Positions 40,369 through 42,469 of a stretch of 64,000 nt of DNA are shown here, piece after piece. How positions within the stretch are numbered: position 1 is the stretch's first letter; each line of letters starts with the position of its first letter. Position numbers and translations under genes: made by a program. The notes beneath the pieces are model-generated. The model did no database searches. It saw nothing but the letters and a program-made list of their open reading frames with translations, and was not told the origin of the DNA. Where the stretch lies: assembly GCA_009914755.4 (NCBI GenBank), contig CP068257.2, forward strand, positions 20,032,001 through 20,096,000, written 5' to 3'. The DNA comes from the human T2T-CHM13v2.0 reference genome, Homo sapiens.

Positions 40369-40880
40369 CATTGAATCTATAAATTACCTTGGGCAGTATG
40401 GCCATTTTCATGATATTGATTCTTCCTATCCATGACCATGGAATGTTCTTCCATTTGTTTGTGTCCTCTTTTATTTCGTTGAGCAGTGGTTTGTAGTTCT
40501 CCTTGAAGAGGTCCTTCACATCCCTTGTAAGTTGGATTCGTAGGCATTTTATTCTCTTTGAAGCAATTGTGAATGGGAGTTCACTCATTATTTGGCTCTC
40601 TGTCTGTTATTGGTGTATAAGAATGCTTGTGATTTTTGCACATTGATTTTGTATCCTGAGACTTTGCTGAAGTTGCTTATCAGTTTAAGGAGATTCTGGG
40701 CTGAGACGATGTGGTTTTCTAGATATACAGTCATGTCATCTGCAAACAGGGACAATTTGACTTCCTTTTTTCCTAATTGAATACCCTTTATTTCTTTCTC
40801 CTCACTGATTGCCCTTGCCAAAACTTCCAACACTATGTTGAATAGGAGTGGTAAGAGAGGGCATCCCTGTCTTGTGCCAG
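40369..40880 (-). mobile_element. L1PA ORF2 (RT-domain) segment in inverted orientation, segment A of the composite L1
   Basis: Antisense L1: cattgaatctataaattaccttgggcagtatggccattttcatgatattgattcttcctatccatga...catctgcaaacagggacaatttgacttcc...ttccaacactatgttgaataggagtggtaagagagggcatccctgtcttgtgccag. Minus-strand ORFs 40355-40588 and 40588-40833 translate to ORF2 peptide containing [12 protein letters not shown]. Confidence 0.85.
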
Positions 40881-42469
40881 GTAATTTATAGATTCAATGC
40901 CATCCCCATCAAGCTACCAATGACTTTCTTCACAGAATTGGAAAAAACTACTTTAAAGTTCATATGGAACCAAAAAAGAGCCCGCATTGCCAAGACAATC
41001 CTAAGCCAAAAGAACAAAGCTGGAGGCATCATGCTACCTAACTTCAAACTATATTACAAGGCTACAGTAATCAAAATAGCATGGTACTGGTACCAAAACA
41101 GAGAAATAGACCAATGGAACAGAACAGAGCTCTCAGAAATAATACCACACATCTACAACCATCTGATCTTTGACAAACCTGACAAAAACAAGGAATGGGG
41201 AAAGAATTCCCTATTTAATAAATGGTGCTGGGAAAACTGACTAGCCATATGTAGAAAGCTGAAACTGGATCCCTTCCTTACACCTTACACAAAAATTAAT
41301 GCAAGATGGATTAAAGACTTAAATGTTAAACCTAAAACCATAAAAACCCTAGAAGAAAACCTAGGCAATACCATTCAGGACATAGGCATGGGCAAGGACT
41401 TCATGACTAAAACACCAAAAGCAATGGCAACAAAAGCCAAAATTGACAAATGGGATCTAATTAAACTAAAGAGCTTCTGCACAGCAAAAGAAACTACCAT
41501 CAGAGTGAACAGGCAACCTAAAGAATGGGAGAAAATTTTTGCAATCTACTCATCTGACAAAGGGCTAATATCCAGAATCTACAAAGAACTCAAACGAATT
41601 TACAAGAAAAAAACAAACAGCTCCATCAAAAAGTGGGCGAAGGATATGAACAAACACTTCTCAAAAGAAGACATTTATGCAGCCAACAGACACATGAAAA
41701 AATGCTCATCATCACTGGCCATCAGAGAAATGCAAATCAAAACCACAATGAGATACCATCTCACACCAGTTAGAATGGCGATCATTAAAAAGTCAGGAAA
41801 CAACAGGTGCTGGAGAGGATGTGGAGAAATAGGAACACTTTTACACTGTTGGTGGGACTGTAAACTAGTTCAACCATTGTGGAAGACAGTGTGGCGATTC
41901 CTTAAGGATCTAGAAATAGAAATACCATACGACCCAGCCATCTCATTACTGGGTATATACCCAAAGGATTATAAATCATGCTGCTATAAAGGCACATGCA
42001 CACATATGTTTACTGTGGCACTATTCACAATAGCAAAGACTTGGAACCAACCCAAATGTCCATCAATGATAGACTGGATTAAGAAAATGTGGCACATATA
42101 CACCATGGAATACTATGCAGCCATAAAAAATGATGAGTTCGTGTCCTTTGTAGGGACATGGATGAAGCTGGAAACCATCATTCTCAGCAAACTATCGCAA
42201 GAACGAAAAACCAAACACCACATGTTCTCACTCATAGGTGGGGATTGAACAATGAGAACACTTGGACACAGGAAGGGGAACATCACACACCGGGGCCTGT
42301 TGTGGGGTGGGGGGAGGGGGGAGGGAAAGCATTTGGAGATATACCTAATGCTAAATGACGAGTTAATGGGTGCAGCACACCAACATGGCACATGCATACA
42401 TACGTAACAAACCTTCACGTTGTGCACATGTACCCTAGAACTTAAAGTATAATAAAATAAAATAAAATA
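40881..42469 (+). mobile_element. L1PA (about PA3-PA5-like) 3' portion in sense orientation (ORF2 C-terminal third + 3' UTR), segment B
   Basis: Sense L1 runs from gtaatttatagattcaatgccatccccatcaagctaccaatg to ...cacatgtaccctagaacttaaagtataataaaataaaataaaat. It is contiguous in L1 coordinates with the inverted segment A, with a 19-nt overlap. Confidence 0.9.
41388..42248 (+). pseudogene. L1 ORF2 C-terminal fragment, 286 aa open, no N-terminal domains (non-functional remnant)
   Basis: The translation ...[122 protein letters not shown]... matches the canonical L1 ORF2 C-terminus. Confidence 0.85.

What the first reader, a model, noticed from the sequence alone, without database searches (positions are those of the whole stretch)
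40369..42469. 5'-inverted L1PA insertion with the twin-priming signature and an exact 19-nt overlap at the inversion junction
Segment 40369-40880 is antisense L1 ORF2 and segment 40881-42469 is sense L1 through the 3' end. In L1 coordinates the inverted piece lies immediately upstream of the direct piece. Both share the same 19 nt: cattgaatctataaattac at 40369-40387 is the exact reverse complement of gtaatttatagattcaatg at 40881-40899. The junction gtgccag|gtaattt shows 2-3 nt of microhomology. This is the arrangement expected for twin priming: inverted 5' piece, small overlap, direct 3' piece. A candidate TSD is aaatgagaaaa at 40358-40368 against aaatgagagaaa at 43822-43834.
Basis: partly seen in the sequence, partly recalled or inferred. 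Interest (0 to 1): 0.55.

Follow-up and report, generated by a model that had tools for sequence, protein, structure and literature searches.

The report
Two nested 5'-inverted L1 insertions
This is an ordinary, decayed primate LINE-1 copy whose 5' part was inserted backwards by the well-known "twin priming" mechanism, with a second LINE-1 of the same inverted kind later inserted into its poly(A) tail; it is a clean textbook example, not a new phenomenon.

Summary
40369-40880 is antisense L1 ORF2 (ORF2p residues 656-826). 40881-42453 is sense L1 from residue 821 through the stop codon and 3'UTR, followed by a short A-rich tail. The two pieces share an exact inverted stretch of 21 nt: 19 nt plus a 2-nt AG junction microhomology. 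The twin-priming reading is supported.

It needs a gap, lies about 29 nt beyond the tail, and 28% of A-rich 12-mers match that flank equally well.

B consists of antisense ORF2p 203-435 joined to sense 1155-1275, the 3'UTR and a tail, with about 2.15 kb missing between the pieces. It is flanked by an exact 16-bp TSD, AAAATAAAATAAAATA (42454-42469 / 43770-43785). With B removed, A's tail abuts AAAATAAGAAAACA (43780-43793), which matches AAAATGAGAAAACA (40357-40370) at 13 of 14 positions.

Both elements have TTTT/A-type endonuclease sites and 2-5 nt microhomologies at all four junctions. The best model is that A inserted first and B then inserted into A's tail. The order is inferred and was not confirmed with orthologous sequences. 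This is known biology and of low interest.

The parts
40352..40356 (.). TTTTT directly upstream of TSD_A. With the AAAA that follows it gives the bottom-strand L1 endonuclease site 5'-TTTT/AAAAA-3'.
   Evidence: Sequence; TSD placement; EN consensus TTTT/A(A) as stated in PMC12016303 and PMC2912911.
40357..40370 (+). TSD_A, left copy: AAAATGAGAAAA plus CA. The CA is a 2-nt microhomology shared with the start of the inverted L1 piece.
   Evidence: 13/14 identity with 43780-43793. Null frequency is 0.8% for shuffles of the real 14-mer, 2.5% for A-rich 14-mers and 3/110 for TT|AAAA sites.
40369..40880 (-). Element A, inverted 5' piece. It is L1 ORF2 reverse-transcriptase region, ORF2p residues 656-826, with one frameshift. 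In the twin-priming model this is the cDNA primed internally from the top-strand nick.
   Evidence: PDB ORF2p match with E=1e-93; Pfam RVT_1; sequence to the left of 40369 is not L1.
40369..40389 (.). Left arm of the 21-nt exact inverted duplication. This is the L1 segment copied into both cDNAs.
   Evidence: Inverted repeat I3, 100% complementary; checked directly.
40879..40899 (.). Right arm of the 21-nt inverted duplication. 40879-40880 (AG) is the inversion-junction microhomology.
40881..42453 (+). Element A, direct 3' piece. It covers ORF2p 821-1275 (one in-frame stop; ORF2 stop codon at 42246-42248) and the 3'UTR through ...AAAGTATAAT.
   Evidence: PDB ORF2p matches; ORF end at 42248.
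42454..42469 (+). TSD_B, left copy: AAAATAAAATAAAATA. It consists of A's short tail (42454-42463) plus the first 6 nt of A's 3' TSD. It is preceded by AT, which gives the bottom-strand site TTTT/AT. The last 2 nt (TA) are a microhomology with the start of B's inverted piece.
   Evidence: 16/16 exact match with 43770-43785. This 16-mer occurs only at these two places in the window. 0 of 776 A-rich 16-mers match the tail zone exactly.
42470..43170 (-). Element B, inverted 5' piece. It is ORF2p residues 203-435, with an open frame and no stop codons.
   Evidence: PDB ORF2p match with E=2e-133; translation.
43168..43172 (.). B inversion junction microhomology, TGGA(A), 4-5 nt.
   Evidence: Sense side compared with A's own copy at 41874-41890. 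Antisense side from the codons for ORF2p 201-203. The fifth base rests on my memory of L1HS.
43171..43739 (+). Element B, direct 3' piece. It covers ORF2p 1155-1275 (2-nt deletion; stop codon at 43532-43534) and the 3'UTR. It is 92.6% identical to the matching part of A.
43740..43769 (+). Element B's A-rich tail.
   Evidence: Sequence.
43770..43785 (+). TSD_B, right copy: AAAATAAAATAAAATA.
43780..43793 (+). TSD_A, right copy: AAAATAAGAAAA plus CA. It overlaps TSD_B by 6 nt, as expected if B's staggered cut spanned the boundary between A's tail and A's TSD.
   Evidence: the pre-B and pre-A sites are reconstructed.

Best explanation
There were two successive LINE-1 retrotranspositions into one site, each of the 5'-inverted (twin-priming) kind.

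Event 1, element A (40369-42463):
- L1 endonuclease nicked the bottom strand at TTTT/AAAAA (40356|40357).
- The L1 RNA poly(A) annealed there, and cDNA-1 was copied from the 3' end back to about ORF2 codon 820.
- The top strand was cut 14 nt downstream. Its 3' end (...GAGAAAACA) annealed through CA to an internal site of the same RNA, at about codon 826.
- From there it primed cDNA-2, which ran to codon 656.
- The two cDNAs were joined at an AG microhomology.
- The product is TSD, inverted 656-826, direct 821-end, short A tail, TSD. The 19-21 nt copied by both polymerases appears as a perfect inverted repeat.

Event 2, element B (42470-43769):
- A different L1 RNA of similar age used the TTTT/AT site at the start of A's tail.
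- It produced a 16-bp TSD, AAAATAAAATAAAATA.
- It was also twin-primed: internal priming at about codon 436 through a TA microhomology, with cDNA-1 stopping at codon 1155.
- About 2.15 kb of L1 is therefore missing between its pieces, which are joined at TGGA(A).

What is shown and what is inferred:
- Shown: the coordinates, orientations, overlap, TSD matches, microhomologies and endonuclease motifs.
- Inferred: the enzymatic steps, which come from the published model, and the order A then B.

Both copies are decayed and non-functional.
For: - L1 coordinates of all four pieces come from solved ORF2p structures.
- Nucleotide-level contiguity and overlap of A's two pieces are confirmed on an independent old L1 in the window.
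- The inverted repeat is exact over 21 nt.
- A's two pieces are equally diverged from L1HS ORF2p, 89.5% and 90.0%.
- A and B are different copies, 92.6% identical over 590 nt with about 18 private changes each.
- TSD_B matches 16/16, the 16-mer is unique in the window, and 0/776 null 16-mers match.
- TSD_A matches 13/14 and sits exactly where A's tail ends once B and one TSD_B copy are removed. The null frequency is about 1-3%.
- Every nucleotive between 40357 and 43793 is accounted for.
- The four junction microhomologies are CA, AG, TA and TGGA(A). This matches the published finding that about 95% of 5'-inverted L1s have 5'-junction microhomology, mostly 2-5 bp (PMC2912911).
- The overlap size is within the published range, median 12 bp with quartiles 4-17 (PMC12016303).
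- Internal deletions are a described outcome of twin priming (PMC2837659).
- At ORF2p residue 1211, A has Ser, as do both old L1 copies in the window, while B has Thr, as does L1HS. This is a weak hint that A belongs to the older type.
Against: - No orthologous empty or intermediate site could be obtained, so neither the TSDs nor the order of events is confirmed by comparison.
- Both TSDs are A-rich and lie in A-rich tails. (AAAAT)n can arise as a tail microsatellite, so the 16/16 match is less surprising than a random-sequence model suggests.
- TSD_A is only moderately significant, at about 1-3%.
- In the shared 3' region A retains 6 of 8 ancestral CpGs against 3 of 8 for B (my count from the alignment; raw CpG counts are 9 vs 4). 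On its face this would make B look older, but the sample is small and it is not significant. Two of those sites may be subfamily differences rather than decay.
- A's inferred tail is very short, about 10 nt.
- B's 2.15-kb gap is much larger than the typical near-adjacent configuration.
Confidence: 0.8

Rival explanations
1. Reverse order. B inserted first, using AAAATGAGAAAA / AAAATAAGAAAA as its own TSD. The twin-primed A later landed exactly between B's 5' TSD copy and B's inverted piece, without making a recognisable TSD of its own.
For: - The outer 12-mer match would fit as B's TSD just as well.
- B has lost more ancestral CpGs than A in the shared region (my count from the alignment; raw CpG counts).
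- Private substitution counts are equal, about 18 each, so age does not exclude this order.
Against: - A would have to hit a 0-2 nt target window and lack a TSD. The sequence before 42470 matches the left flank only through AAAA.
- The exact 16/16 repeat flanking B would be coincidence.
- The CA that extends the outer TSD to 13/14 would also be coincidence.
- 5'-inverted L1s normally carry TSDs of about 10-17 bp (PMC2912911).
Confidence: 0.1
2. The two antisense blocks (40369-40880 and 42470-43170) are remnants of one older minus-strand L1. The sense block 40881-42469 is a plain 5'-truncated L1 that inserted into it, with a target-site deletion. On this view the 21-nt overlap is coincidental.
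For: Both antisense blocks are in the same orientation, and their L1 coordinates descend in the right order along the plus strand: 826 to 656, then 435 to 203.
Against: - 220 codons (436-655, about 660 nt) are missing between them, and there is no TSD around the sense block.
- A minus-strand L1 ending at codon 826 would lack its own 3' end and tail.
- The chance that an unrelated 5' truncation point falls within about 25 nt of that end is roughly 1% (my inference: about 50 of 6000 positions).
- The 16-bp TSD brackets 42470-43769 as a single unit.
- Microhomology at 42468-42469 and at 43168-43172 marks 42470-43170 as B's own inverted piece.
Confidence: 0.04
3. Dual priming, or a single compound event. 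Either the inverted and direct pieces, particularly those of B, come from two different L1 RNAs primed on the two nicked strands, or A and B arrived together in one complex event.
For: - B's two pieces are about 2.15 kb apart in L1 coordinates and share no sequence, so origin from the same RNA cannot be shown.
- Dual priming has been proposed as a mechanism (PMC2837659).
Against: - For A, the 19-21 nt shared segment and the equal divergence of both pieces point to one RNA.
- A and B each have their own TSD.
- Their 3' ends differ by 7.4%, so they are not copies of one RNA.
- Twin priming with an internal deletion is the standard description and covers B (PMC2837659).
Confidence: 0.04
4. Post-insertion rearrangement. 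An ordinary 2.1-kb 5'-truncated L1 later had its 5' 0.5 kb flipped by a local inversion, for example through replication template switching.
For: None specific. It would also produce opposite orientations.
Against: - A simple inversion does not duplicate 19-21 nt at the breakpoint.
- Its left breakpoint would have to coincide exactly with the junction between the TSD and the L1.
- 18-31% of L1 insertions show this architecture at the time of insertion (PMC12016303, PMC2912911).
Confidence: 0.02

Closest known systems
5'-inverted L1 insertions produced by twin priming (Ostertag and Kazazian 2001, as described in PMC2912911, PMC2837659 and PMC12016303)
   Same: Element A has an inverted 5' piece lying immediately upstream, in L1 coordinates, of a direct 3' piece. 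It also has a short overlap (19-21 nt), microhomology at both the 5' junction and the inversion junction, a poly(A)-type tail, a TSD of about 14 bp and a TTTT/AA nick site.
   Different: Nothing essential. The overlap is slightly above the published upper quartile of 17 bp. The tail is short and degenerate, as expected for an old copy.
Twin-priming inversion with internal deletion (inversion/deletion class)
   Same: Element B consists of two oppositely oriented fragments of L1 within one 16-bp TSD. It has a gap in L1 coordinates and microhomologies at both junctions.
   Different: The gap of about 2.15 kb is large. 46% of sequenced cases have the two cDNA ends within 20 bp of each other (PMC12016303). 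I could not retrieve the upper range of that distribution.
Nested retrotransposon insertions into the A-rich tails of pre-existing L1 or Alu elements
   Same: B's endonuclease site and TSD lie inside A's tail. L1 insertions are enriched within pre-existing L1 sequence (PMC12016303), and homopolymeric tails are noted as targets for new insertions (PMC2837659).
   Different: B's staggered cut spans the boundary between A's tail and A's TSD. The two TSDs therefore overlap by 6 nt, which made A's 3' TSD hard to recognise by eye.
Dual priming (Meyer et al. 2010, PMC2837659)
   Same: It also gives oppositely oriented retroelement pieces within one TSD.
   Different: It requires two RNAs. Element A's shared 19-21 nt argues for a single RNA. 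For B the question cannot be settled.

Membership tests
LINE-1 (L1) retrotransposon sequence | Encodes ORF2p (endonuclease, reverse transcriptase and C-terminal domain) followed by the L1 3'UTR and an A-rich tail | tested here: met
   All four pieces match human ORF2p from solved structures with E-values from 1e-56 to 1e-252, over residues 656-826, 821-1275, 203-435 and 1155-1275. Pfam RVT_1 matches in A's inverted piece.
5'-inverted L1 (twin-priming product), element A | Two L1 segments in opposite orientation, with the inverted one lying 5' of and adjacent to the direct one in L1 coordinates | tested here: met
   The minus-strand piece is 656-826 and the plus-strand piece is 821-1275. An independent L1 copy in the window gives the same adjacency and overlap.
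5'-inverted L1 (twin-priming product), element A | Small overlap or gap at the inversion point, with microhomology at the junction | tested here: met
   The overlap is 19-21 nt and exact. The AG microhomology is shown. The published overlap distribution has a median of 12 bp and quartiles of 4-17 bp (PMC12016303).
5'-inverted L1 (twin-priming product), element A | Microhomology between the target's top-strand end and the internal priming site (the 5' junction) | tested here: met
   CA is shared by the L1 start (40369-40370) and the flank that follows the 3' TSD copy (43792-43793). This depends on the TSD assignment being right.
5'-inverted L1 (twin-priming product), element A | One TSD bracketing both segments, beginning at a TTTT/A endonuclease site and directly following the poly(A) tail | tested here: inconclusive
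   The match is 13/14 (40357-40370 vs 43780-43793) with a TTTTT|AAAA site, and the null frequency is about 1-3%. However, it abuts A's tail only after B is removed in silico, and no empty-site orthologue was available.
5'-inverted L1 (twin-priming product), element B | Two oppositely oriented L1 segments inside one TSD, with junction microhomologies | tested here: met
   The minus-strand piece is 203-435 and the plus-strand piece is 1155-1275. The TSD is an exact 16/16 match. The TA and TGGA(A) microhomologies are shown. The gap of about 2.15 kb places it in the inversion/deletion class (PMC2837659).
   No L1 consensus library is available here. Identity to L1HS ORF2p is 89.5-93%, and A and B differ by 7.4%. 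From memory only, the 3'UTR strings GCTAAATGACGAGTTAATGGGTGCAGCACACCAAC and, in A, CCCTAGAACTT resemble L1PA4 or older rather than L1PA3.
Endonuclease-independent L1 insertion | No TSD, no TTTT/A site, and often 3' truncation with no tail | tested here: not met
   Both elements have complete 3' ends, A-rich tails, TTTT/A-type sites and candidate TSDs.

The most novel reading that the evidence does not exclude
A and B might not be two independent hits millions of years apart. They could be one compound retrotransposition, or two tightly coupled ones, at a single endonuclease-opened site, with two different L1 RNAs each twin-primed. That would be an extended form of 'dual priming'. It would explain why two inverted L1s of indistinguishable age sit tail-to-head with overlapping TSDs.
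Probability: 0.03. Interest if true: 0.35.

Novelty: already known. Interest (0 to 1): 0.08.

Why it matters
It matters little beyond correct annotation. 5'-inverted L1s make up roughly 18-31% of L1 insertions (PMC12016303, PMC2912911), and nesting into A-rich tails is common. The locus is a tidy worked example in which every base from 40357 to 43793 can be assigned to a TSD, a microhomology, a cDNA or a tail. It also shows how a nested insertion can hide the true 3' TSD and lead a reader to a false one. The two overlapping TSDs could serve as a test case for software that reconstructs nested retrotransposon histories.

Tried and rejected
Rejected. It is gapped, lies about 29 nt past the better-placed copy at the end of the tail, and 28% of A-rich 12-mers do as well.
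- **Relative age of A and B from polarised substitutions.** The result was about 18 private changes each, so it is inconclusive. CpG retention points weakly the other way and is not significant.
- **Metagenome scans.** I scanned for the reconstructed A-present, B-absent junction and for the unique right flank, hoping for primate host DNA. Both returned 0 hits. The other public collections offered hold bacterial, archaeal, viral or plasmid sequence and were not scanned.
- **Ostertag and Kazazian 2001 (PMC311219).** The paper is not held in the library. The model was therefore taken from papers that describe it: PMC2912911, PMC2837659 and PMC12016303.
- **Perfect 14-nt inverted repeat in the flanks (40209-40222 / 43963-43976).** I tested whether it marks a palindromic host element that could confirm the empty site. 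No extended complementarity was found; the best local score was 29, against a shuffled mean of 23.5 and maximum of 33.
- **Old L1 as a reference for B's two junctions.** It is too diverged there. I used ORF2p codons and A's own copy instead.
- **Pfam.** Only RVT_1 matched, on A's inverted piece. No family was reported for the ORF2 linker or the C-terminal pieces.
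Full report
**1. What is in the sequence**

The perfect inverted repeat extends two bases further, to 21 nt (40369-40389 / 40879-40899, repeat I3).

The four L1 pieces map to human LINE-1 ORF2p from solved structures as follows (8uw3_A / 8sxt_A numbering):

| Piece | Window coordinates | Strand | ORF2p residues | Evidence |
|---|---|---|---|---|
| A inverted | 40369-40880 | minus | 656-826 (one frameshift) |, E about 1e-93; Pfam RVT_1, |
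| A direct | 40881-42453 | plus | 821-1275, then 3'UTR | |
| B inverted | 42470-43170 | minus | 203-435 (open frame) | |
| B direct | 43171-43739 | plus | 1155-1275, then 3'UTR | |

- A's ORF2 stop codon is at 42246-42248. The 3'UTR runs to ...AAAGTATAAT at 42453 and is followed by AAAATAAAATAAAATA.
- A's inverted piece is therefore the L1 segment immediately 5' of its direct piece, and the two overlap by 6-7 codons.
- An old, diverged antisense L1 elsewhere in the window (about 11.9-15.3 kb) is an independent nucleotide reference that does not rely on memory. A's inverted piece aligns to it from 13431, and A's direct piece aligns from 13446 running the other way. That is the same adjacency and overlap.
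- Both A pieces are equally diverged from L1HS ORF2p, at 89.5% and 90.0% identity.

**2.

Directly after 42469 there is a second pair of antisense and sense L1 blocks, element B.

- B's 3'UTR is followed by an A-rich tail running to about 43769.
- B's direct piece is only 92.6% identical to the corresponding part of A, with about 18 private substitutions on each side. A and B are therefore different L1 copies of similar age.
- B lacks ORF2 codons 436-1154, about 2.15 kb, between its two pieces.

**3. Target-site duplications**

- The string aaatgagagaaa is really at 43821-43832.
- It needs an indel and lies about 29 nt beyond the better-placed copy at the end of the tail.
- 28% of A-rich 12-mers taken from elsewhere in the window score at least as well in that flank.

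An unbiased search found two better repeats.

TSD_B:
- AAAATAAAATAAAATA occurs at 42454-42469, ending exactly where B's inverted piece starts. It occurs again at 43770-43785, right after B's tail.
- The match is 16/16.
- This 16-mer occurs nowhere else in the 64-kb window on either strand.
- None of 776 A-rich 16-mers from the window matches the tail zone exactly.

TSD_A:
- AAAATGAGAAAA at 40357-40368 matches AAAATAAGAAAA at 43780-43791 at 11 of 12 positions without a gap.
- Both copies are followed by CA, giving 13/14.
- Null frequencies are 0.8% for shuffles of the real 14-mer, 2.5% for A-rich 14-mers and 3/110 for TT|AAAA sites. The 12-mer alone is weak, at about 10%.

The two repeats interlock. 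If B and one copy of TSD_B are removed, A's 3' end reads ...AAAGTATAAT-AAAATAAAAT-AAAATAAGAAAACA-AAAAC... That is a short tail followed directly by A's 3' TSD (reconstruction). B's staggered cut thus spanned the boundary between A's tail and A's TSD, so the two TSDs overlap by 6 nt.

Endonuclease sites:
- TSD_A is preceded by TTTTT, giving the bottom-strand site TTTT/AAAAA.
- TSD_B is preceded by AT, giving the bottom-strand site TTTT/AT.
- Both fit the L1 endonuclease motif TTTT/A (PMC12016303, PMC2912911).

**4. Junction microhomologies**

| Junction | Microhomology | Basis |
|---|---|---|
| A, 5' junction | CA (2 nt) | shared between the L1 start and the target |
| A, inversion junction | AG (2 nt) | see below |
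| B, 5' junction | TA (2 nt) | last two bases of the TSD, which are also the antisense of the first two bases of the Tyr436 codon |
| B, inversion junction | TGGA, possibly TGGAA (4-5 nt) | sense side checked against A's copy; the fifth base rests on my memory of L1HS |

For A's inversion junction, the antisense L1 continues TTCTT after CCAG in the reference copy, while the sense L1 reads CCAAGGTAATTT in A's own duplicate. This leaves AG assignable to either piece.

The sequence to the left of 40369 has no similarity to the L1 sequence that would follow in antisense, so the boundary is real.

**5. Comparison with what is known**

Twin priming proceeds as follows (PMC2912911, PMC2837659, PMC12016303, all citing Ostertag and Kazazian 2001):
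- The bottom-strand nick primes on the poly(A).
- The top-strand 3' end anneals internally on the same RNA and primes a second, inverted cDNA.
- The two cDNAs are then joined at a short complementarity.

Published numbers:
- 18-22% (PMC12016303) to about 31% (PMC2912911) of L1 insertions are 5'-inverted.
- 46% have the two cDNA ends within 20 bp of each other. In 41% of those the cDNAs overlap, with a median overlap of 12 bp and quartiles of 4-17 (PMC12016303).
- About 95% have microhomology at the 5' junction, and about 70% have 2-5 bp (PMC2912911).
- TSDs of inverted L1s peak at about 14-16 bp (PMC2912911).
- Internal deletions between the two fragments are part of the standard description (PMC2837659).

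Element A matches every one of these features. Element B matches the inversion/deletion form.

**6. Order of events and rival explanations**

A-then-B explains both TSDs, the CA extension and all junctions, with no unassigned bases.

- **Reverse order (B first).** A would need to insert within a 0-2 nt window at B's 5' edge without a TSD. Both the 16/16 repeat and the CA would be coincidences. I give this about 0.1.
- **One old minus-strand L1 split by a plain sense insertion.** This fails on the missing 660 nt, the absence of a TSD, the missing 3' end of the supposed minus-strand element, and the roughly 1% coincidence of the overlap.
- **Dual priming.** It cannot be excluded for B but is unnecessary.
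- **Later local inversion.** It does not explain the duplicated 19-21 nt.

Relative age does not discriminate between the orders.
- Private substitutions are equal.
- CpG retention is slightly higher in A, at 6/8 against 3/8 ancestral sites by my count. This is not significant.
- At one coding site, ORF2p residue 1211, A shares Ser with the old L1 copies while B shares Thr with L1HS. This hints that A is the older type.

Orthologous primate loci would settle the order. The collections available here hold no primate genomes, and two metagenome scans found nothing.

**7. Verdict**

The TSD claim is replaced by a better one, and the locus turns out to be a nested pair of twin-primed L1s.

All of this is established L1 biology. 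Both copies are decayed, with a frameshift, stop codons and a deletion. There is no sign of any function beyond being insertions. Novelty is 'already known' and interest is low.

Noticed in passing
window 42470-43793: A second 5'-inverted L1 (element B) with an internal gap of about 2.15 kb and an exact 16-bp TSD. It is nested at the boundary between the tail and the TSD of the L1 described in the finding.
   Followed up: yes
window about 11900-15300 (minus-strand L1): An old, diverged L1 copy, 67-75% identical to elements A and B. It covers at least ORF2 codons from about 230 to the C-terminus. Relative to the younger copies it carries a long A-rich run and an extra block of about 60 nt (near 12150-12330). 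I used it here as an internal coordinate reference.
   Followed up: partly
window 1261-1528 (+) and 34329-34410 (-): Two further short, old L1 3'-end fragments, 70-77% identical to A and B.
   Followed up: no
window 42113-42979 (-): A 288-aa ATG-initiated ORF runs antisense across the A/B boundary, from B's inverted ORF2 piece into A's tail and 3'UTR. It is a chance chimeric reading frame created by the nesting, with no evidence that it is a gene.
   Followed up: no
window 40209-40222 and 43963-43976: A perfect 14-nt inverted repeat (AATTGTGTCAAAAT / ATTTTGACACAATT) in the unique flanks, about 150-170 nt outside the composite on each side. It is not part of any longer palindrome, and its origin is unexplained.
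   Followed up: partly
window 44439-44494: Three tandem copies of a 17-nt unit (TATCCACTACCCACGTG-like), 82-86% identical to one another.
   Followed up: no
window 39949-40003: A T-rich stretch followed by GAG... that recurs at seven or more other places in the window at 80-93% identity. It is probably the end of an antisense Alu-type SINE with its poly(T). It lies about 350 nt upstream of element A.
   Followed up: no
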